Below are positions 19,224 through 42,776 of a stretch of 64,000 nucleotides of DNA, piece by piece. The translations under genes were made by a program, and so were the position numbers. The number at the start of each line of letters is the position of its first letter. Position 1 is the first letter of the stretch. Source of the DNA: Alphaproteobacteria bacterium (GTDB lineage Bacteria; Pseudomonadota; Alphaproteobacteria; RF32; CAG-239); assembly GCA_045637985.1 (NCBI GenBank), contig JAZUAM010000011.1, forward strand, positions 2,764 through 66,763, written 5' to 3'. Under the pieces are notes generated by a model. That model made no database searches, was not told the DNA's origin, and saw only the letters and a list, made by a program, of their open reading frames with translations.

Positions 19224-19643
19224 TTACTGAGGATGTTTTTTGATATAAGTATTGGTTCCTATTTCATCAAGCATCTTTTGCTCTTGTGCTTCAAATTCTT
19301 TTTGTTTTGCTTTACGTCGATTTTTATCAATCATCTCATAGGTTTTTTGCTCTTTGAACATATCAGCCATTACATCGCGAATCTGTTCTATTTTTATCTG
19401 TACCTCTTGAATTTGCGCTTCAATTTTTTGGCGTTTTTTTAAATATTGCTCAGTATAAAGACCGAAATCGCAAATTCCCGGATTTTCTGAAACGAATATT
19501 TTTTCTTTTTCATAACTTGATATAAGGTTGTTGAGTTTCTTTTGCAAACTTTCTTCAAGTTCTTGTTCTATAACAAGCAATCTTCGCTGTTCGTCAAGTT
19601 CAAATTTTTTAATTCTTTCAAGTGTTTTAAGAGAATTCCGCAT
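19224..19643 (-). CDS. fliJ: Probable flagellar export chaperone FliJ (coiled-coil)
   Basis: 139-aa charged coiled-coil protein immediately downstream of fliI. The call rests on position and composition. Confidence 0.45.
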   Translation of the reverse strand: MRNSLKTLERIKKFELDEQRRLLVIEQELEESLQKKLNNLISSYEKEKIFVSENPGICDFGLYTEQYLKKRQKIEAQIQEVQIKIEQIRDVMADMFKEQKTYEMIDKNRRKAKQKEFEAQEQKMLDEIGTNTYIKKHPQ

Positions 19644-19652
19644 CTATCGTTC

Positions 19653-20993
19653 CTATTGTTCCGGAATATACGGAGTGGCTAAAATTGCTTCCAACATTTC
19701 GTAACACTGTTCCAGAGAGAATTTGTCTTGTTTGCTTTGCGATAAAAAGTCTTCAATCATCGGATAGTAAAAAATTGCTTCATCAACTTCACGATTAGAT
19801 CCTTTTTTATACGCACCTAAACGAATCAACTCAGCCATATCTTCGTAAGAAGAGATATATTTTCGAGCTTTGGAAACCAGTTCTGCTTCTTCTTTTGTAT
19901 CACAATCGGGCATTGTTCTGGAAATAGAGCGCAAAATATTAATCGCAGGATATCGATTGCGTTCGGCAATAGAACGATCAAGCACAATATGTCCGTCAAG
20001 AATTGACCTGACAGCATCGGCAACAGGTTCATTATGATCATCACCATCAACCAAAACCGTGAACAACCCCGTAATTGTTCCGTTGCCGGAACCGGGGCCG
20101 GCACGTTCCAAAAGACGAGGAAGTTCGGCAAATACACTCGGGGTATATCCTTTTGATGCCGGAGGTTCTCCGATTGAAAGTGAAATCTCTCGTTGAGCCA
20201 TAGCAAAACGGGTAATAGAATCCATCATACATAAAACATTTTTATTTTCATCGCGAAAATATTCTGAAATTGCCATAGCAACATATGCAGCCTGACGTCT
20301 GAGTAACGGGCTTTCATCAGACGTTGCCAAAACCAAAACTGATTTTTTAAGACCTTCGGCACCTAAAACATCTTCGACAAATTCTTTAGCTTCTCGTCCG
20401 CGTTCACCGATTAAGCCTATGACAGATATATCCGAATCCGTGTGACGAGCCATCATTGACATTAGTGTTGATTTACCGACACCTGAGCCGGCAAAAATAC
20501 CCATACGTTGTCCTTTGCATATTGTTAAAAACGCATTAACTGCTTTTATACCCAAATCAACCTTACCGCTAACTCTGTCACGAAACTGAGCCGGTGGCGG
20601 AGATGATTTTATAAAATAGGGTTTACTGCCTTTTATAAGAGGACCTTTACCATCTATAGCTTCACCGAACGCGTTAACAATACGCCCCAACCAAGAAGGA
20701 TGAGGATATATCACCGGTTTTGCATCAACAACTTCGACTAAACAATTAATGCCTATGCCATCCATTGAACCATAAGGCATAAGCAAAATTTTATCATCTT
20801 TAAAACTTACAATCTCGCACGAAACTCTTTCATTTCGATTATTGATAACATTACATCTGTCCCCGATTGCCAAACTGTTTTGGATTCCGCTCACTTCGAC
20901 AAACAAACCCTGCACCCCGCTTACTCGACCATAGTAAGATGCAACGTCAATTTTTTCTATAGACTGGATGATATTATCGGTAAATTCGCCCAT
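19653..20993 (-). CDS. fliI: Flagellum-specific ATP synthase FliI
   Basis: Walker A GSGVGKST. GERGREAKEF motif of the F1/T3SS ATPase family. Start chosen at MGEFTDN, which is preceded by AAGGA. The ORF track extends it to 21116. Confidence 0.88.
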   Translation of the reverse strand: MGEFTDNIIQSIEKIDVASYYGRVSGVQGLFVEVSGIQNSLAIGDRCNVINNRNERVSCEIVSFKDDKILLMPYGSMDGIGINCLVEVVDAKPVIYPHPSWLGRIVNAFGEAIDGKGPLIKGSKPYFIKSSPPPAQFRDRVSGKVDLGIKAVNAFLTICKGQRMGIFAGSGVGKSTLMSMMARHTDSDISVIGLIGERGREAKEFVEDVLGAEGLKKSVLVLATSDESPLLRRQAAYVAMAISEYFRDENKNVLCMMDSITRFAMAQREISLSIGEPPASKGYTPSVFAELPRLLERAGPGSGNGTITGLFTVLVDGDDHNEPVADAVRSILDGHIVLDRSIAERNRYPAINILRSISRTMPDCDTKEEAELVSKARKYISSYEDMAELIRLGAYKKGSNREVDEAIFYYPMIEDFLSQSKQDKFSLEQCYEMLEAILATPYIPEQ

Positions 20994-21188
20994 ATTTTTC
21001 CTTTTTTCGCTAAACAAGCTAAAGAATACTATAATATTTTTCTTTGTACCAATAATATCAAGGTTATCAACACCTAAAACAGTGCATAATAAAAAACTGT
21101 TAATAATTATTAACAAAACTAAACAAATACAATTTATCGCTATATAGTAAAATCACTTAGTAAGTTTTTTAGAGAAGGATGTAGCGGA

Positions 21189-22661: not shown

Positions 22662-22892
22662 TTATTCTGCTGCAATTGCATACGCATTGTCTTCTGTATG
22701 ACAAGCGCAACCATCAATCGCTTTTAATTCAGAAAAGTTTACACGAGAGCGAAATTCTGATTTTTTGCCTACATTGAATTCTGAATATGGGCGCAAATAT
22801 CCCATAACACGTGTCCATACTTCACAAGGCTGTCTTTCTTCATCTGCAAGTTTGATATCTTCAAAATTAACAGTGGTCATTTTTTTCTCCAT
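22662..22892 (-). CDS. Stand-alone glycyl-radical C-terminal segment of NrdD, in the same frame as nrdD but separated by two stop codons
   Basis: 76 aa with EVWTRVMGYLRP...FNVGKKSEFRSRV. This matches the NrdD C-terminal RVxGY glycyl-radical loop. It is in the same reading frame as the upstream nrdD ORF, behind TAA-AGT-TAA. Confidence 0.55.
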   Translation of the reverse strand: MEKKMTTVNFEDIKLADEERQPCEVWTRVMGYLRPYSEFNVGKKSEFRSRVNFSELKAIDGCACHTEDNAYAIAAE

Positions 22893-34398: not shown

Positions 34399-35205
34399 TT
34401 AGCGGACGACATCTTCCAAATTCTCAAAAACCTTTTTGGCAGTGTGAAGAGCATCATCGGATTTTTGAGGCTTTCCGGCATATGTTAAAGAATATTGCAT
34501 CACCTTAAAACCGAAAGGATTGGTTGTATAATCCATTTTTTCTTCGTCTGTTTTTTCAATATCTTCGTATTTATCAAATTCAAGATACTGTATGCGTAAG
34601 TATGCTCGCCAATTAATTATATCAGGTTCCGGCATATCTTTTGTGGAAGTGTATGTTTTAAATGCCGCCATCCATAAATTATCAGTTAATCGACGTATTT
34701 GCTCTATTTCGACCTTCCGTCTCATTCGCAGACGAATAAAAGTTTTCAGTTGCTCTTTGTCTTGCTTGTTTACAAAATCATAATAATTACGCAGTCCGGA
34801 ATACCAATAAAATTTGGAATTTGTATCCCAACGATAATACAGGTCGGCTGTTGATCTGGGAATTGCATGTCTTGCTCTGACATATTCATCAATATATTTT
34901 TCAGTGAGCAAATCTCTTAGCTTAATTGCTGTTGTTGAAGACTGAACTTGTTCCAAACCATATGATACTTGATTTATTTTATAAAACATGGGAGAAGATG
35001 TTTTTTGTGGCAATAATAAGTAAATTGTCATGGTTAATATTATCGTTAAGCAAAAACTTATTACTGCAAAAATAACCAGTATTCGTGATGTCCAAAGATA
35101 TCGTCTTTCAGGGAATGAATTTATATGAAATCTTTCGGGATAAAGTCCAAGTTTATCAGGACTTTTTTTATCTCGATAGCGGAATACTGTTGAAAAAATA
35201 CTCAT
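34399..35205 (-). CDS. VirB8-family type IV secretion protein (paralog 1)
   Basis: 268 aa. Cytoplasmic N-terminus, ERRYLW, one transmembrane helix, LPQK, FYKIN and a C-terminal NPFGFKVMQY. Same order as VirB8 ERRAW-TM-LPLK...NPLGFxVxxY. Confidence 0.6.
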   Translation of the reverse strand: MSIFSTVFRYRDKKSPDKLGLYPERFHINSFPERRYLWTSRILVIFAVISFCLTIILTMTIYLLLPQKTSSPMFYKINQVSYGLEQVQSSTTAIKLRDLLTEKYIDEYVRARHAIPRSTADLYYRWDTNSKFYWYSGLRNYYDFVNKQDKEQLKTFIRLRMRRKVEIEQIRRLTDNLWMAAFKTYTSTKDMPEPDIINWRAYLRIQYLEFDKYEDIEKTDEEKMDYTTNPFGFKVMQYSLTYAGKPQKSDDALHTAKKVFENLEDVVR

Positions 35206-35217
35206 CCGAAGAGATCC

Positions 35218-35997
35218 TTAATATGCATATTGTTCTGATCGGACTTCTTTTGCCGTATTCAGATAACTTTGGGCATCATCGGGGGTGCCGACATATGATA
35301 AAGCATAATTTGTTATCAAGAAGCCAAACGGATTTTGATCTCTTAGAGATTTATTTTCATATGGAATCGGCGCCATAGTTGCGCGAACATATGCTCGCCA
35401 AATATTAATAATCGGAACTGTTTCACCGGGATAATAGTCCATTGTAATAAATTGAGCCTGCCAAAAACCTTTGGATATGGGCTTAATCCATTCTACCTCT
35501 GCCAAACGAACCAACCCTCGCATTTTGAAAGAGTTAATATTATTATTGATATCATTAGAAACAAAATCTTGATAAACTTTTCTGGATGACATCCAAAACA
35601 ATCTTGACCCTCTGCCCCAACGTGTCATTAACTCATCATAATCTGCTGTGATAGCATGACGCATTAAAATATATTCTTCTATAAAAGCTTCCGCAAGAAG
35701 ATCAATAGCAGCAACCGGTCTGATATGTCTTTCCAGAACATCTAATTGGCTTGAATGCTTAGAATACTGAAATAAAAGAGGATAAGCACTACGCTGAGGC
35801 AACATAAGGTAGATTGCCGATACCAACGTCATATTGAAACATATGCTTAAAGAAGCAAATATAACCAATAATCTTGAACTCCATAAATAGCGTCGCTCAG
35901 GCATTGCACTTGTGTGAATGGCCTCAGGATAAAGCCCCAACTTATCAGGGCTTTTTTTCTCCTTATATTTGAATACGGTCTTTAGTAAATCCAGCAT
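35218..35997 (-). CDS. VirB8-family type IV secretion protein (paralog 2)
   Basis: 259 aa. N-terminal 50 residues strongly similar to paralog 1 (KEKKSPDKLGLYPE...PERRYLWSSRLLVIFA). C-terminal NPFGFLITNYAL. Confidence 0.6.
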   Translation of the reverse strand: MLDLLKTVFKYKEKKSPDKLGLYPEAIHTSAMPERRYLWSSRLLVIFASLSICFNMTLVSAIYLMLPQRSAYPLLFQYSKHSSQLDVLERHIRPVAAIDLLAEAFIEEYILMRHAITADYDELMTRWGRGSRLFWMSSRKVYQDFVSNDINNNINSFKMRGLVRLAEVEWIKPISKGFWQAQFITMDYYPGETVPIINIWRAYVRATMAPIPYENKSLRDQNPFGFLITNYALSYVGTPDDAQSYLNTAKEVRSEQYAY

Positions 35998-36171
35998 TTG
36001 GCCTCGTTTTGTTCAGCTATATATCTTGTATATTAACTCATTATATGCGGTAAAAATATCTTTTTTATTAATTTTATACAACAAAGTTGAATAAAAGCAA
36101 ATAAATACTGTTAATATTTAAAATATTGATATAATCTGCTTGTAGTTAGTGCTTGTTTTAAGGTTAGGGTT

Positions 36172-38064
36172 ATGAAAAAAATAATTGTAATATTTAGTTT
36201 TTTTGCTTTATTGATTGCAGCTTGTTCCAATGTTGAATATGTGGATATAGATGCTCCGGCTCCGGCGGCATATACAGATTGGGACAGAGCAATCAGAATC
36301 GATACTGATTTGCAAACGATGTATTCCAATACTCCGCGTAAAATTCAAAAACCTATTGATATGTATATGGCTTTTGCTCTTGCGTTGAAATATAATTACA
36401 CAAGACGACTTGTAAGCTATCAACAAAGTATGGTGGAAGTCGGCATGAGTCCTGAAAACCGCTTACCGGAAATTTTTTCGTCTGCAGGTTATGTTAATAC
36501 TGATAACTCAAATGCAATGGACTCTGAGTTAAAGTTGGCTTGGAATATCTTGGATATAAGTACTGTTTATTATCAAAGTAAGGATGATTGGTATCAATCC
36601 AGTGTTGCCTATGAACAAAGCCGTAAAGTAATTCATAATCTTATGCAAGAAACACGTATTTTGTATTGGAAAGCTTTGACTGCTCAAAGATTGTTACCGT
36701 TGATTGATGATATGATAGAATATATGACTCTTGATGTTGATGAACTTAATGCAAAAACATCTGAGTTAGCTCAATATGGAAAAAGCTTGAGCGTTGCAGA
36801 GCTTGAACGCAAAAGAGAATTTATGGAAGCAACTAAAGAATTATCGGCTTTGAAACGAGATCTTGAAACTGCTGAAGTACGACTTGTTTCATTAATGGGT
36901 TTTCATCCGTCGACAGAAATAAAATTGGTAGGAAAAGAAGACGGAAATTATGATTTACCCGAAATCAAAAGTTCCTTGAGCGAAATGGAATGGATTGCAT
37001 TAAATAATCGCCCGGAATTAAGAGCGCGTGATTTGGTAACTAATATTGATGAAGTTATAGCATCATTTAAGATATTTTCGAATCCCGGAGATACAAAGTA
37101 TCAAAAAGATGCAAGTTACTATAACAGAGCTTGGTCTAAAAAAGCTAAAGAAGTAGGTATGGCGGTTTTTGAAGATGTACGTGATCCAAAATATTTTGAA
37201 GCAGAAGCTTTGAGACGTCAACGTATGACCAATCTTGTATTAACTCAAGTGTATGTAGCTTGGGCACGTTATATGTCTTCTTTGGAAGATTATCGTATTG
37301 CTGATGAACTGGCAAATGCATCTGAAGATATTGCCGAAGACAGCACTGTTTCGGTCGGTGCGCGTTCTGCTAAGGCTCAATTAGATGCTTCCAGAGCTGT
37401 TGAAGATGAAGCAGAAGCAATGCTGGCTTATGTAAATTTGCAAGATGCGTTAGGTAATTTGTATGCAACATTGGGAATGGATGCAATTCCTTATTATATG
37501 TTAAATGAAAAACCATCAAAAATTGCCGTATATTTACGTGGAGTTTTAGAAAAATGGCGAAAAGGAGAGTTTTTGCCGGATAACCGTCCGTATATGTTGG
37601 ATGTTCCGACCAAACGTCCGCCTGTAAATCTGTCGTCTTCAACATTGATGCCTGATTTAACTTTGGAAAGCGGACAAAAGTTTGAAGTTGTTATTCCGAT
37701 GTCATTAATAAACAAAATGGACTTCAAAGGAAAAATAACATATAAAGCAGGTATGATTGATGATTCTCCGTTGCCTGATTGGGTGATGTTTGACGAAGAT
37801 AAAAGAGCTTTTGTCGGAATGGCGATGCCCGGAAATGTCGGCACATATCGTTTGAAGGCTTATATATCTGATGAGGAAGGTCGTGTTGCATATGTTACTT
37901 TTGCAATAAAAATCACCGATGTATATGTTCCATCTGTCAAACTTATGGGACTTACGGAAGGAAGAACAGCCCAAGTCTTAAAAAGATGTGTCGGACGTCA
38001 ATGCTCTGATGAATATATAGCAACAGATGTTATTGGAGAAGATGTATCGAAACAGGCAAATTAG
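36172..38064 (+). CDS. Lipoprotein with an outer-membrane-factor (TolC/NodT-like) N-terminal region and a C-terminal putative Ig-like/cadherin-like domain
   Basis: 630 aa. Lipobox LLIAACS. OMF-like coiled repeats (LKLAWNILDISTVYYQSKDDW...). The C-terminal LPDWVMFDEDKRAFVGMAMPGNVGTYRLKAYISDEEG resembles a putative Ig domain. Confidence 0.45.
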   Translation: MKKIIVIFSFFALLIAACSNVEYVDIDAPAPAAYTDWDRAIRIDTDLQTMYSNTPRKIQKPIDMYMAFALALKYNYTRRLVSYQQSMVEVGMSPENRLPEIFSSAGYVNTDNSNAMDSELKLAWNILDISTVYYQSKDDWYQSSVAYEQSRKVIHNLMQETRILYWKALTAQRLLPLIDDMIEYMTLDVDELNAKTSELAQYGKSLSVAELERKREFMEATKELSALKRDLETAEVRLVSLMGFHPSTEIKLVGKEDGNYDLPEIKSSLSEMEWIALNNRPELRARDLVTNIDEVIASFKIFSNPGDTKYQKDASYYNRAWSKKAKEVGMAVFEDVRDPKYFEAEALRRQRMTNLVLTQVYVAWARYMSSLEDYRIADELANASEDIAEDSTVSVGARSAKAQLDASRAVEDEAEAMLAYVNLQDALGNLYATLGMDAIPYYMLNEKPSKIAVYLRGVLEKWRKGEFLPDNRPYMLDVPTKRPPVNLSSSTLMPDLTLESGQKFEVVIPMSLINKMDFKGKITYKAGMIDDSPLPDWVMFDEDKRAFVGMAMPGNVGTYRLKAYISDEEGRVAYVTFAIKITDVYVPSVKLMGLTEGRTAQVLKRCVGRQCSDEYIATDVIGEDVSKQAN

Positions 38065-38067
38065 CTT

Positions 38068-38096
38068 ATACCCCGAGATATCCTCGGGGTATTTTA
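38068..38096 (+). terminator. Rho-independent terminator
   Basis: CCCCGAG/CTCGGGG 7-bp stem followed by a U-rich tail. Confidence 0.6.
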
Positions 38097-38102
38097 TGTG
38101 AG

Positions 38103-38636
38103 ATGACCATGAAATTATATCACTATATCGCAAAACCCAATACAGCATTGAGAGAAGGAATTTTATCTTTTGCTAAAAATCCTAATGCTGATTTGAGATA
38201 TTACTTTAAGCGCTCCGGTGAAATAACCCACGATGGTATCGTAAAATGGATGGAAAGCTGTTTTGAAGGTAGAAGTCGTGCTATTCGAGGTTTTTCTGAG
38301 CCTATTAAGTGGACTGATAAAAGTATCAATATGTTTAAACCTTTTATTGAAAACGCTGATATGTTTTCAATAAATTTAGAGGCTTTGAACAAAGATGGTT
38401 TAATTGAGGCTGTTTATATCAGCCCTGCAATTCGTCCTGATTTGGATAAAGATTTTCCGCAAGATGTTGATGAGCGGTTGCTTAAATTGTCTTCAATTAA
38501 CGATATTGATAACTCTCCGGTAGATTGGTCTGTTTGTGATGAAAAGCTAGGATTAAGATTTTCCGTTGTTCCTTATTACTTGATTGTAATTAAAGGTGGA
38601 ATTATACCACCAAAGTATATAGAAAAAGAAGTCTGA
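38103..38636 (+). CDS. Hypothetical protein
   Basis: 177 aa. No motif recognised. Confidence 0.4.
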   Translation: MTMKLYHYIAKPNTALREGILSFAKNPNADLRYYFKRSGEITHDGIVKWMESCFEGRSRAIRGFSEPIKWTDKSINMFKPFIENADMFSINLEALNKDGLIEAVYISPAIRPDLDKDFPQDVDERLLKLSSINDIDNSPVDWSVCDEKLGLRFSVVPYYLIVIKGGIIPPKYIEKEV

Positions 38637-38813
38637 GATACCCAAATACTGGAGATACTTTGGTAAAAACCACAAAAGAGATGAAACAAGAGCCATAAAT
38701 GAAATATATTGACTTTTAAGGCGCAAAAATTATCATAATACGTTATGATTGTGTGATAAAAGTTGCAACAAATTTAACTTAACATATTATTTTTGCTCGA
38801 ATTTTATCTTTAG

Positions 38814-39473
38814 CTACATATCATTATCATTTTTGGGAATGTATATAACGTTGTTATCTATTTTTACAACTCCCATTTTTATAGCTTGTTCGCATTTACC
38901 CTCTGCACAACTTTCTAATGCTGTTATTTTTTCAAATTCCGGAATATTATGAATATGTGAAAGCCCTAAAACAACCAAAAGAAATAAAATTTTTTTTCCT
39001 TTACCTATACTAGACATACTGACAACCGGTAGAAAAAGTAAATTAATACAAAACAAGTTGATATTACTCGTAAGCTCGAGATCATTGTTATACATTCGTG
39101 CAACCGATGGAAGATGATATAGCATATATGGAACAAATAAACATAAAATCCCCCATGCCACCTCTTCAATATAAACAAGCTTTTGATACTTAAATTTTAA
39201 TAAAAATAATAAAGTTGAAGTTGCTAAAAGCACGGAATAATAACGTAAGAGCTTGTATGCGTTTTTAATTTCATCACTGTAATCGTCGGGATTAATCGAA
39301 AAAAGATTAAGGTTTAATATTGTGCAAAATGCTACAAAGAACAAAATATAATAAGAAACCTTATCAAATATATTCAATAGATTAAGAAAAATATAGCGTA
39401 ACTTTTGCATATCTAATCCCTTTATAATTCCAACCGGTAAGTTAATACAACCAAAGAATATCTGACTTGTCAA
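38814..39473 (-). CDS. Hypothetical integral membrane protein
   Basis: 219 aa with about 5 transmembrane helices. The true start may be MQKLRY. Confidence 0.4.
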   Translation of the reverse strand: MTSQIFFGCINLPVGIIKGLDMQKLRYIFLNLLNIFDKVSYYILFFVAFCTILNLNLFSINPDDYSDEIKNAYKLLRYYSVLLATSTLLFLLKFKYQKLVYIEEVAWGILCLFVPYMLYHLPSVARMYNNDLELTSNINLFCINLLFLPVVSMSSIGKGKKILFLLVVLGLSHIHNIPEFEKITALESCAEGKCEQAIKMGVVKIDNNVIYIPKNDNDM

Positions 39474-39500
39474 TCAGCTATTCTTTGGTTAATATATTTT

Positions 39501-40307
39501 TTATCTTCTGCGAGCTTGCGGCGGTAATAATGAACTGCAACTATTTATGTTATTTGCAGCAAGGCCTTTTGATATGCCTATGAAATCATTTTTTAAATCC
39601 TTAAAACTATCTTGCATGATTTGTAAGTTATTACCATACTTAGGATTATTCCATTTTTTATACAAATCAATTACTTCTTTGTATAATCCAGCTGCAGCTG
39701 TCACTCCTGCAGATATGGGACCGTCAAAAGCTCCGACACAACTCACATATTGATGTTTATTTACATCAGACATGGGAAGAGGTCTTATTCTTTGATTTTC
39801 TGCTTGAGCTTGTGCTAATGAAGATCTGTTTTCATAGTTTTGGATATTATTTTGAGGATACGCCAATCTTTCACCTGCATCATAGCCTAAATTATAAATG
39901 TTTTCACCAAGTTTATCTATGCCTGCTTTTCTAATAATATTGCTCAAATTATTACTAAACTCAGCTATCGTGTTATTATTTTGTTGCTGTTGAGATGCTG
40001 TTGAAGTTTGTGGGGTAGATGGTGTGGTATTATTCATATTCTCGATATTCTGAGAAATATCAGACATCCCAAAACCATAGTTATTGCTTGAATTACCCTA
40101 AAAGTTGGTGCCGTATTGCGAATAATTTGAAGTTATACCTCGTTTTTTCAGCTGCTCCAAAAGTACATTTTCTTTTTCTTCTCGAGCAAATTGATAAGCT
40201 ACCTCGTCTTGAATTGTAAATCCGCTATGGTCAACACCATAACTGTCTGTTTGATTATTGCCGATTTGATAACCGAATTTTGACTTATATTTCGGATACA
40301 TATCCAT
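39501..40307 (-). pseudogene. Q/N/S-rich low-complexity protein interrupted by one in-frame TAG (two ORFs, 69 aa plus 188 aa, same frame)
   Basis: ORFs 40098..40307 and 39501..40067 share a frame. Only a TAG at 40098-40100 and 10 codons separate them: ...QYGTNF*GNSSNNYGFGMSDISQN... Confidence 0.5.
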
Positions 40308-42688: not shown

Positions 42689-42776
42689 TTGGTGCTCTGG
42701 AAAAGACTCGAACTTTCACGAGGATTCCCCCACAAATACCTGAAACTTGCGCGTCTACCAATTCCGCCACCAGAGC
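42689..42776 (-). tRNA. tRNA-Leu(CAG)
   Basis: 88-nt class II tRNA GCTCTGGTGGCGGAATTGGTAGACGCGCAAGTTTCAGGTATTTG...TCCAGAGCACCA. Long variable arm, anticodon CAG. Closely resembles bacterial tRNA-Leu. Confidence 0.85.

What the first reader, a model, noticed from the sequence alone, without database searches (positions are those of the whole stretch)
34399..35997. Orphan tandem VirB8 paralogs without other T4SS genes nearby
Two adjacent genes encode VirB8-type proteins (ERRYLW-TM-LPQK...NPFGF.V..Y). Their N-termini are highly similar, indicating tandem duplication. No VirB9, VirB10, VirB11, VirB4 or VirD4 lies within 20 kb. The neighbours are a DUF2207-like membrane protein and an OMF/Ig-domain lipoprotein. 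Duplicated VirB8 is characteristic of Rickettsiales-type rvh secretion systems. An orphan pair could represent a scattered or novel envelope-spanning module.
Basis: partly seen in the sequence, partly recalled or inferred. Interest (0 to 1): 0.55.

Follow-up and report, generated by a model that had tools for sequence, protein, structure and literature searches.

The report
Orphan VirB8 pair with lipoprotein partner
Two real, functional VirB8-type secretion-system genes sit alone in the core chromosome of an uncultured gut alphaproteobacterium, always paired with an outer-membrane-channel-like lipoprotein through an ultra-conserved shared promoter; this is either a detached piece of a scattered type IV secretion system or a new two-part envelope module.

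Summary
35218-35997(-) (B8a, 259 aa) and 34399-35205(-) (B8b, 268 aa) are tandem paralogs, 38% identical. Both pass Pfam VirB8, keep the ERRYLW/TM/NPFG landmarks, and B8a is predicted to have a VirB8 fold. No other T4SS gene lies in the 64-kb window, nor within ±10 kb of the homologous locus in 86 related loci.

New findings:
- The invariant partner is the divergently transcribed 630-aa lipoprotein (divergent OMF/TolC-type domain plus Ig-like domain), not DUF2207.
- The two share a ~62-nt intergenic block that is ≥95% conserved although synonymous sites are saturated.
- 29 related loci carry only one VirB8, so the core module is lipoprotein plus VirB8.
- Both copies are under strong purifying selection (dN/dS about 0.03).
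- The duplication is not the Rickettsiales RvhB8-I/II one.
- The nearest relatives are a mix: orphan VirB8s inside housekeeping gene strings of other uncultured Alphaproteobacteria, and VirB8s inside complete T4SS operons. These share the cytoplasmic tail motif DKLGxYPE.

Whether the rest of a T4SS exists elsewhere in these genomes could not be tested. Best guess (0.45): a detached, co-regulated part of a scattered T4SS-type machine. Main rival (0.3): a T4SS-independent VirB8-OMF module.

The parts
35218..35997 (-). B8a: upstream VirB8 paralog (259 aa). Cytoplasmic tail with the DKLGxYPE...PERRYLW motif, one TM helix (about residues 40-66), periplasmic NTF2-like domain with NPFG.
   Evidence: Pfam PF04335 E 6.3e-14. 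AF2 model pLDDT 79.9, all top 46 Foldseek PDB hits are VirB8 family, TM 0.83-0.87 to Brucella VirB8. Ortholog present in all 86 related loci. dN/dS 0.026.
34399..35205 (-). B8b: downstream VirB8 paralog (268 aa). Same architecture, evolves faster, carries an acidic insertion before NPFG. Starts 12 nt after the B8a stop, so probably co-transcribed.
   Evidence: Pfam PF04335 E 1.8e-16. 38% identical to B8a. Present in 57 of 86 loci, absent in 29. dN/dS 0.033.
36172..38064 (+). Lipo630: divergently transcribed lipoprotein (lipobox LIAAC, invariant Cys18). N-terminal ~470 aa is a divergent OMF/TolC-type helical domain, followed by a C-terminal He_PIG Ig-like domain (~490-590) and a Cys-containing tail.
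   Evidence: Adjacent and divergent to VirB8 in 82 of 82 informative loci. He_PIG in 31/32 orthologs, OEP in 13/32 (best E 5.4e-8). Two long helical hairpins in the AF2 model, but pLDDT is only 51. The Ig domain matches dystroglycan/cadherin-like folds. 53-98% identical across the fetched loci and 68-87% among the best database orthologs. dN/dS 0.016.
36069..36135 (.). Hyper-conserved ~62-nt intergenic block, read as back-to-back promoters plus a probable operator. P_lipo extended -10 TGaTATAAT at 36127-36135 (+). P_B8 -35 TTGCTT (36095-36100), 16-nt spacer, -10 TATAAA (36073-36078) on the minus strand. Core 25-mer at 36086-36110.
   Evidence: The core occurs once per locus, only here, in 81 sources (56 exact matches); six more carry a 1-nt deletion variant. 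At least 95% column conservation over 73 unique sequences; flanks not conserved; absent from out-clade loci. dS is above 2 between the same genomes. The promoter assignment is my reading of the sequence, not a tool result (the scan was uninformative).
38068..38092 (+). Terminator-like hairpin immediately after Lipo630, suggesting the gene is monocistronic.
   Evidence: 10-bp stem with 6 GC pairs, followed by a T-rich tail.

Best explanation
B8a and B8b are functional VirB8-type bitopic inner-membrane scaffold proteins: N-terminus in the cytoplasm, one TM helix, periplasmic NTF2-like domain. They descend from the tail-bearing VirB8 lineage of alphaproteobacterial P-type T4SSs. In this gut clade the gene was detached from the other virB genes. 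It became fixed in the core chromosome, head-to-head with a divergent OMF-type lipoprotein, and the two share a hyper-conserved bidirectional promoter/operator, so they are switched on together. Most likely (inferred) the VirB8 cytoplasmic tail still docks onto a VirB4-type ATPase complex encoded elsewhere, as VirB8 tails do in R388. The periplasmic domains would oligomerise, as B8a/B8b hetero-oligomers where both copies exist, into the periplasmic 'arches' of an envelope-spanning machine. The lipoprotein would be a clade-specific outer-membrane partner of that machine, or at least co-regulated with it. Shown: family and fold, purifying selection, conserved pairing, conserved intergenic block, shared tail motif. 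Inferred: the partners, the physical contact with the lipoprotein, and the existence of the remaining T4SS genes.
For: VirB8 family and fold. Strong purifying selection on both copies, comparable to PepF. The tail motif DKLGxYPE..PERRYLW is the most conserved part of the protein. It is shared with operon-embedded VirB8s (P0378 in L093, P0406 in L090, and a weaker KDKIGGY in the Microvirga plasmid T4SS), which points to a T4SS partner. In R388, VirB4 N-terminal domains contact VirB8 (PMC12857230). The nearest operon-embedded relatives sit in full VirB4...VirB8-small ORF-VirB8-VirB9-VirB10-VirB11 clusters of uncultured Alphaproteobacteria. Scattered rvh loci with virB8 genes as separate transcription units are established in Rickettsiales (PMC4676284). 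Lipoprotein-VirB8 adjacency survives many rearrangements on both sides, 82/82 loci, and the pair shares an ultra-conserved intergenic block.
Against: No VirB4/B6/B9/B10/B11/D4 was seen in 64 kb here, nor in about 1.44 Mb of sequence flanking the locus in 86 relatives. Their presence elsewhere in these genomes is untested. Four of the five nearest outgroup members examined are also orphans embedded in housekeeping strings (Map-RadC-VirB8-UvrD-PrmA), which looks more like a core cellular function than an accessory secretion system. Lipo630 is absent from the T4SS operons examined and is more conserved than secretion-system parts usually are (my general expectation, not tested here). The OMF assignment is moderate: no PDB sequence hit, and the model is poor.
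Confidence: 0.45

Rival explanations
1. Self-contained, T4SS-independent module. An inner-membrane VirB8 oligomer and the OMF-type lipoprotein, whose C-terminal Ig-like domain would lie in the periplasm, together form a two-partner trans-envelope tether or conduit. The function would be housekeeping-like, and no VirB4 would exist anywhere in the genome.
For: The pairing is invariant through many rearrangements and there is a dedicated ultra-conserved bidirectional promoter. dN/dS is at housekeeping level. Sister-lineage orphans sit in housekeeping operons. No T4SS gene was found in any flank. The lipoprotein is 53-98% identical across the fetched loci of the clade.
Against: I found no report of a VirB8-family protein working outside a T4SS-derived machine. 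The cytoplasmic tail motif is shared with operon-embedded VirB8s. Orphan VirB8s outside this clade have no Lipo630-like neighbour, so the lipoprotein cannot be the universal partner of the subfamily.
Confidence: 0.3
2. The adjacency is regulatory or syntenic only. Lipo630 would be an ordinary outer-membrane factor for an efflux pump or T1SS encoded elsewhere, and the VirB8 genes would belong to an unrelated scattered T4SS. The two merely share a promoter region.
For: OEP-family signal in the lipoprotein. Lipo630 is absent from T4SS operons and from out-clade orphan loci. A terminator after Lipo630 suggests an independent transcript.
Against: Breakpoints occur on both sides of the pair but never between the two genes in 82 loci. 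The intergenic block is conserved far beyond what two unrelated promoters would need.
Confidence: 0.18
3. The pair are orthologs of the Rickettsiales RvhB8-I/RvhB8-II duplication.
For: The organism is an alphaproteobacterium with duplicated VirB8, and one copy evolves faster. Related operons (L088, L093) have two VirB8 genes flanking a small ORF.
Against: The paralogs are 38% identical rather than at most 19%. Both keep NPFG, and their N-termini are highly similar (against PMC4676284). In the NJ tree both copies fall inside one orphan clade, apart from the two operon copies. The family profile found no solved RvhB8 chain by sequence.
Confidence: 0.03
4. The genes are decaying remnants of a lost T4SS or integrated conjugative element.
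For: Their local isolation from other virB genes.
Against: The ORFs are intact in all fetched loci (80 distinct assemblies from the genome scan plus metagenome contigs). dN/dS is 0.026-0.033. The genes are embedded in syntenic housekeeping context with no integrase or mobile-element signature next to the module in the window.
Confidence: 0.02

Closest known systems
Canonical VirB8/TrwG/TraE of P-type T4SS (Brucella, Agrobacterium, Bartonella, R388, pKM101)
   Same: Pfam family; bitopic topology; juxtamembrane ERRxW-type motif; LPxx after the TM helix; NPxG motif; NTF2-like periplasmic fold (TM 0.74-0.87, rmsd 2.2-4 A).
   Different: Only 16-22% identity to solved members, detectable only with a family profile. 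Far below the NCBIfam VirB8 equivalog cut-off. Not in a virB operon. Has an extended, strictly conserved cytoplasmic tail.
VirB8 genes inside T4SS operons of uncultured Alphaproteobacteria (L088, L093, L090) and of Microvirga sp. VF16 plasmid pMVF16-3
   Same: These are the closest operon-embedded relatives (27-32% identity to B8a). P0378, P0406 and, more weakly, the Microvirga protein share the DK(L/I)GxY tail.
   Different: They lie between VirB4 and VirB9/VirB10/VirB11, and no Lipo630 homolog is present. The large ORFs between VirB4 and VirB8 gave no VirB6/TrbL Pfam hit, so calling these operons 'rvh-like' rests only on gene order and on the duplicated VirB8.
Rickettsiales rvh T4SS with RvhB8-I/RvhB8-II
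   Same: Alphaproteobacterial; duplicated VirB8; one conserved and one faster-evolving copy; rvh genes scattered over the chromosome, with some virB8 genes as separate transcription units (PMC4676284).
   Different: A different, independent duplication: 38% versus at most 19% identity, both NPFG motifs intact, similar N-termini. No rvhB7/rvhB9 next to the genes. The organism appears to be a flagellated (FliI/FliJ) anaerobic (NrdDG) gut bacterium rather than an obligate intracellular one.
Orphan tail-bearing VirB8 genes in housekeeping strings of other uncultured Alphaproteobacteria (L091, L094, L095/L096, L098)
   Same: Same subfamily (sister group in the NJ tree), same tail motif, single gene without virB neighbours.
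   Different: The neighbours are Map-RadC-UvrD-PrmA or a Sel1/TPR protein, not Lipo630. They lack the conserved intergenic block.
Outer-membrane factor lipoproteins (TolC/NodT/OprM/CusC family)
   Same: N-terminal lipobox Cys; Pfam OEP hits in 13/32 orthologs; two repeats, each a ~55-aa helix followed by a ~34-aa helix, about 196 residues apart.
   Different: Very divergent: no hit to any solved OMF by sequence profile, and none to CusC by hhalign or a local HMM. Carries an extra C-terminal Ig-like domain. No MFP or pump gene is adjacent; a VirB8 gene is.

Membership tests
VirB8 family (Pfam PF04335) | Score above the Pfam gathering threshold over most of the profile | tested here: met
   61.1 and 52.8 bits against 23.2; profile positions 16/17-209/210 of 213.
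VirB8 family (Pfam PF04335) | NTF2-like periplasmic fold superposable on solved VirB8 structures | tested here: met
   B8a AF2 model (periplasmic pLDDT above 90). The top 46 Foldseek PDB hits are all VirB8/TrwG/TraE/RvhB8/CagV/IcmL-like. Brucella VirB8 TM 0.83-0.87, rmsd 2.2-2.8 A. B8b was not modelled separately.
VirB8 family (Pfam PF04335) | Bitopic topology: short cytoplasmic N-terminus, one TM helix, periplasmic C-terminal domain | tested here: met
   A single long helix at 34-70 covers the hydrophobic stretch at about 42-66, with basic residues on the N-terminal side. The alignment to full-length R388 TrwG includes the TM segment.
VirB8 family (Pfam PF04335) | Conserved NPXG dimerisation motif | tested here: met
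   NPFG is present in both copies. N and G are invariant and P nearly invariant (>=90%) across 29-42 family members. The motif definition comes from PMC4676284.
VirB8 family (Pfam PF04335) | Encoded with, and working in, a T4SS (VirB4 and other core genes) | tested here: not met
   Not met locally: nothing in 64 kb or in ±10 kb of 86 related loci. Genome-wide presence is not testable with these tools.
NCBIfam NF010439 VirB8 equivalog | Score above the curated cut-off (188 bits) | tested here: not met
   24.9 and 21.0 bits. Not an equivalog of the Agrobacterium-type VirB8.
Rickettsiales rvh-type VirB8 duplication (RvhB8-I/II) | Paralogs within one genome at most ~19% identical, from an ancient duplication | tested here: not met
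   38% identity, E 3e-63. Both copies lie inside one clade in the NJ tree.
Rickettsiales rvh-type VirB8 duplication (RvhB8-I/II) | One paralog (B8-II) with a degenerate NPXG motif and an atypical dimer interface | tested here: not met
   Both copies keep NPFG.
Rickettsiales rvh-type VirB8 duplication (RvhB8-I/II) | N-terminal cytoplasmic/TM regions of the paralogs extremely divergent | tested here: not met
   The N-terminal 60 residues are about 57% identical (my count from the alignment), the best-conserved part.
Rickettsiales rvh-type VirB8 duplication (RvhB8-I/II) | Other rvh genes (B3, B4, B6 paralogs, B9, B10, B11, D4) present in scattered islets of the same genome | not testable with these tools
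   No whole-genome access.
Outer-membrane factor (OMF/TolC, Pfam OEP PF02321), for the partner Lipo630 | Significant OEP match | tested here: inconclusive
   The window protein scores only E 0.04 (14.1 bits against 22). However, 13 of 32 orthologs match at E <= 0.01, best 5.4e-8. There is no hit to solved OMF sequences or to CusC.
Outer-membrane factor (OMF/TolC, Pfam OEP PF02321), for the partner Lipo630 | Trimeric alpha-barrel plus 12-strand beta-barrel architecture | tested here: inconclusive
   The AF2 model has pLDDT 51. Two long helical hairpins are predicted at 145-241 and 341-433, but no barrel strands, and Foldseek matched only the Ig domain.
Bacterial lipoprotein, for the partner Lipo630 | Signal peptide with lipobox and invariant Cys | tested here: met
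   MKKIIVIFSFFALLIAAC: Cys18 is invariant in 32 orthologs. One ortholog hits LPAM_1.

The most novel reading that the evidence does not exclude
A VirB8-type inner-membrane protein and a TolC-like lipoprotein with a periplasmic Ig-like domain form a previously undescribed, T4SS-independent two-partner envelope-spanning system. It would be part of the core genome of a widespread uncultured gut alphaproteobacterial order and controlled by a dedicated, ultra-conserved operator. The VirB8 fold would then have been exapted from secretion systems into a housekeeping envelope function, and the related orphans in Map-RadC-UvrD strings of sister lineages would be further cases.
Probability: 0.3. Interest if true: 0.8.

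Novelty: new variant of a known kind. Interest (0 to 1): 0.55.

Why it matters
VirB8 is regarded as an obligatory, operon-embedded assembly factor of type IV secretion systems and is a drug target. This subfamily has left the operon. It behaves like a core gene under housekeeping-level selection in many uncultured gut Alphaproteobacteria, and in one clade it is locked to an outer-membrane-channel-like lipoprotein by one of the most conserved non-coding blocks in the region. If the other T4SS genes exist elsewhere, the Rickettsiales-style scattered T4SS architecture would extend to extracellular, flagellated gut commensals found in human and livestock gut samples, which would point to an unrecognised host- or microbe-directed secretion system. 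If they do not exist, this would be the first VirB8 protein with a role outside T4SS and a candidate new envelope machine. Either way, the conserved intergenic block gives a concrete handle, a putative operator, for finding the regulator and its regulon.

Tried and rejected
- Single-sequence PDB searches with B8a, B8b and Lipo630 found nothing relevant; only the family profile reached VirB8.
- The AF2 model of Lipo630 from a shallow alignment (all sequences at least 67% identical) failed for the helical part (pLDDT 51), and Foldseek placed only the Ig domain.
- hhalign of the Lipo630 alignment against E. coli CusC, profile searches against PDB sequences and a local HMM against CusC gave no OMF hit.
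- The consensus promoter scan was no better than shuffled sequence.
- Rfam found only tRNAs.
- Six literature searches found no description of orphan VirB8 modules, of a VirB8-OMF pairing, or of T4SS in this gut clade or these MAGs.
- A third homolog search, started from the most distant single-copy VirB8, did not reach beyond the family.
- I tried to decide whether the T4SS-bearing contigs (L088, L090, L093) belong to the same clade.
- I dropped 'DUF2207 is part of the module': its block is inverted or absent next to VirB8 in many loci.
- I dropped 'the L091 630-aa ORF is a Lipo630 homolog'.
- I softened 'the duplication is lineage-specific'. The NJ tree places the B8b clade outside (B8a + single-copy), and L047 shows secondary loss, so the timing is unresolved (no bootstrap, and long-branch attraction is possible).
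- I could not confirm that the large ORFs in L088/L093 are VirB6-like.
Full report
**Observation.** Both match Pfam VirB8 (PF04335) over almost the whole profile, far above the gathering score (52.8 and 61.1 bits against 23.2). They fall far below the NCBIfam VirB8 equivalog cut-off (21 and 25 bits against 188), so they are divergent family members. They are 38% identical to each other (E 3e-63). By my count from the alignment, the first 60 residues are about 57% identical.

Single sequences find no solved structure. A 29-sequence family profile finds Bartonella, Brucella, Agrobacterium, R388, pKM101 and Cag VirB8 homologs (E 5.5e-8 to 6.5e-3). An AlphaFold2 model of B8a (pLDDT 79.9, periplasmic domain above 90) superposes on solved VirB8 domains. 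Brucella VirB8 gives TM 0.83-0.87 and rmsd 2.2-2.8 A, and the top 46 Foldseek hits are all VirB8-type proteins, including full-length R388 TrwG and Rickettsia typhi RvhB8. The juxtamembrane ERRYLW, the single TM helix and the NPFG motif are conserved across the family. Family membership is therefore established.

**Local isolation.** Pfam scans of every ORF of at least 110 aa in the 64-kb window returned housekeeping functions only. These include Memo/AMMECR1, serine dehydratase, aldolase, transketolase, BamB, Der, SodB, a FliI/FliJ pair, NrdD/NrdG, PepF, AlaRS, XseA, UppP and an EPSP_synthase-family enzyme (MurA/AroA type). No T4SS component appeared. The region is ordinary chromosome with about 35% GC.

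**What is conserved.** Homologs of B8b (228 hits) and of the neighbouring 630-aa lipoprotein (732 hits) come almost entirely from uncultured gut or rumen 'Alphaproteobacteria bacterium' MAGs. A scan of one genome per GTDB species found 254 matching stretches. The best 80 loci are all such MAGs: CAG:495, Ca. Scatocola faecigallinarum, Hadza, RUG/RGIG, UMGS and similar. NCBI files Ca. Scatocola under Rhodospirillales incertae sedis.

I ran tblastn with the window proteins against 86 fetched loci. The lipoprotein (Lipo630) lies directly upstream of the VirB8 gene, on the opposite strand, in all 82 loci that extend far enough. The gene on the far side of Lipo630 varies (NrdD, Memo, Tkt/h218 and others). 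The genes downstream of VirB8 vary even more (DUF2207, PepF and at least ten other ORFs, mostly convergent). DUF2207 is therefore not part of the unit.

Twenty-nine loci (L047, L057, L060-L086) carry a single VirB8, which is 50-53% identical to B8a and 40-43% identical to B8b. The other 57 loci have two copies. The core module is thus Lipo630 plus one VirB8. In an NJ tree (no support values) the B8b clade is sister to the clade of B8a plus the single-copy genes, and L047 nests among two-copy genomes. Secondary loss therefore occurs, and the date of the duplication is unresolved. B8b is the faster-evolving copy.

Both copies are under strong purifying selection. Against the closest relative (L007), dN/dS is 0.026 for B8a and 0.033 for B8b, compared with 0.016 for Lipo630 and 0.029 for PepF.

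**The partner.** Lipo630 has a lipobox with an invariant Cys18. All or nearly all orthologs have a C-terminal He_PIG Ig-like domain. Pfam OEP (outer-membrane efflux protein) matches 9 of 23 and 13 of 32 orthologs, with best E-values of 3.5e-6 and 5.4e-8. The AF2 model is poor (pLDDT 51) but shows two repeats of a long helical hairpin plus a beta-sandwich. Foldseek confirms only the Ig domain, which is dystroglycan/cadherin-like. Profile searches against solved OMFs and against CusC failed. I call it a divergent OMF-type lipoprotein with moderate confidence. A strong hairpin follows its stop codon (38068-38092).

**The intergenic block.** The 129-246-nt spacer between the two start codons contains a ~62-nt block (window 36069-36135). 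It is at least 95% conserved over 73 unique sequences. Its 25-nt core occurs once per locus and nowhere else in the window or in the other loci, and it is absent from out-clade loci. Among the same genomes, synonymous sites are saturated (dS above 2), proteins are 50-60% identical and GC ranges from 32 to 52%. I read the block as back-to-back promoters: an extended -10 (TGaTATAAT) for Lipo630, and TTGCTT-16 nt-TATAAA for B8a. The invariance of the spacer positions suggests an additional operator. This is inference from the sequence. It does argue strongly for co-regulation.

**Relatives outside the clade.** An exhaustive profile search of 1.84 billion representatives gave 849 hits at E <= 1e-3, 351 at <= 1e-10 and 77 at <= 1e-30. 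Second-tier hits fall into two kinds.

- *In complete T4SS clusters.* L088 reads VirB4, four unannotated ORFs, VirB8, a 56-aa ORF, VirB8, VirB9, a 1140-aa ORF, VirB10, VirB11. L093 reads VirB2, VirB4, five ORFs, VirB8, a 59-aa ORF, VirB8, VirB9, then a giant ORF. L090 reads VirB4, a 59-aa ORF, VirB8, VirB9, a secretin, further ORFs, then VirD4 and VirB11. These VirB8s are 27-32% identical to B8a. The gene order with a duplicated VirB8 recalls rvh loci, but the large ORFs gave no VirB6/TrbL match.
- *Orphans.* Four of the five nearest outgroup members examined are again orphans. These are Map-RadC-VirB8-UvrD(-PrmA) in L094 and L098, VirB8 next to TrkH/M24/PrmA/UvrD in L095/L096, and Sel1/TPR protein-VirB8-164-aa ORF-Map-RadC in L091/L092. 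None has a Lipo630-like neighbour.

The only names attached to these proteins are 'MAG: Alphaproteobacteria bacterium'. The closest annotated cultured relative is the VirB8/TrbF of Microvirga sp. VF16 plasmid pMVF16-3 (29% identity), inside a full MobA-VirB2-B3-...-B8-B9-B10-B11-VirD4 operon.

**The tail.** The most conserved part of the orphan family is the cytoplasmic N-terminus: F..(K/R)..SPDKLG.YPE....A.PERRYLW. The DKLGxYPE element is also present in operon-embedded P0378 (the upstream copy in L093) and P0406 (L090), in the out-clade orphans, and in weaker form (KDKIGGY) in the Microvirga protein. It is missing from the downstream operon copies. In the R388 structure, VirB4 N-terminal domains contact VirB8 (review PMC12857230). 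This is my main reason to think the orphan proteins still dock to a T4SS inner-membrane complex. It is an inference.

**Comparison with Rickettsiales.** Gillespie et al. (PMC4676284) define the rvh duplication by four features: paralogs at most 19% identical, a degenerate NPXG in RvhB8-II, extremely divergent N-termini, and linkage to rvhB9 and other rvh genes. The present pair fails the first three and, locally, the fourth. The duplication here is independent and much younger. The parallels that remain are one conserved and one accelerated copy, and the general precedent of scattered virB genes.

**Mechanism and its rivals.** I favour the following (0.45). B8a/B8b are working VirB8 scaffolds of a T4SS-type machine whose ATPase and core genes lie elsewhere. 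They are co-regulated with, and probably contact, the OMF-type lipoprotein.

- The main rival (0.3) is a self-contained VirB8-OMF envelope module with no VirB4. It is favoured by the core-gene behaviour of the whole orphan subfamily and by the absence of any T4SS gene in about 1.5 Mb of flanking sequence. It is disfavoured by the shared tail motif and by the lack of any precedent.
- A third reading (0.18) is that the lipoprotein link is regulatory only.
- Orthology to RvhB8-I/II and pseudogene decay are effectively excluded.

The decisive test is a whole-genome scan of the carrier MAGs for VirB4, VirB9, VirB10, VirB11 and VirD4.

**Verdict.** This is a real and non-trivial feature: a new variant of a known kind. 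It consists of bona fide VirB8 proteins in an undescribed, deeply conserved chromosomal arrangement with a specific lipoprotein partner and a remarkable regulatory block. Interest is moderate to high (0.55). It would rise to about 0.8 if the genomes prove to lack a T4SS.

Noticed in passing
window 36069-36135 (core 36086-36110): About 62 nt of intergenic DNA is at least 95% conserved across roughly 80 species whose synonymous sites are saturated and whose GC ranges from 32 to 52%. It is unique in each locus. It probably holds back-to-back promoters plus an operator for an unknown regulator.
   Followed up: partly
L090:12191-13567 (and L069:5452-7005): A T4SS operon of an uncultured alphaproteobacterium carries a secretin (PF00263) gene directly after VirB9, an unusual outer-membrane component for a T4SS. 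A weakly similar ORF (E 1.2e-14) lies about 3 kb downstream of the orphan VirB8 in clade locus L069.
   Followed up: no
L088:8829-10750 and L093:10001-11974: T4SS operons with two VirB8 genes flanking a 56-59-aa ORF, preceded by four or five large unannotated ORFs, and carrying giant ORFs: a 1514-aa VirB10/TrbI protein and a 1140-aa beta-flower repeat protein in L088, and an unannotated ORF of more than 2650 aa in L093. The order recalls rvh loci, but no VirB6/TrbL signal was found.
   Followed up: partly
L094:1662-2402, L098:9864-10700, L096:63-839, L091:10001-10765: Orphan VirB8 genes of the same tail-bearing subfamily are embedded in housekeeping strings (Map-RadC-VirB8-UvrD-PrmA) with abutting or overlapping reading frames, in other uncultured Alphaproteobacteria. 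The recurring RadC/UvrD neighbours might hint at a DNA-related role.
   Followed up: partly
proteins P0384 (586 aa), P0408 (621 aa), P0440 (402 aa): These proteins contain three or four tandem VirB8-like stretches in a single polypeptide, that is, fused multi-VirB8 proteins.
   Followed up: no
window 22662-22892 (-): A 76-aa ORF between nrdG and nrdD carries an RVMGY glycyl-radical-type motif. Related loci have a 65-72-aa ORF annotated with the NRDD Pfam domain at the same place. The anaerobic ribonucleotide reductase appears to have its glycyl-radical segment encoded as a separate small gene.
   Followed up: partly
window 19224-21116 (-): A FliI-type ATPase and a weak FliJ-like gene lie between SodB and an OmpR-type response regulator, with no other flagellar or T3SS gene in the 64-kb window. 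The arrangement is conserved in relatives (L001).
   Followed up: no
window 34399-35205, B8b residues ~212-226: B8b of the window's subgroup has an acidic insertion (KYEDIEKTDEEKMDY) just before the NPFG motif. B8a, the single-copy genes and the more distant B8b orthologs lack it.
   Followed up: no
window 38103-40067: Three ORFs without family matches (177, 219 and 188 aa; the last has a Q/N-rich N-terminus) follow Lipo630. Only the first was seen in a relative, and only in the closest one (L007). They look strain-specific.
   Followed up: partly
window 42690-42776 (-): ARAGORN calls a tRNA-Leu(CAG) here, but it did not reach Rfam's tRNA gathering score in the whole-window scan.
   Followed up: no
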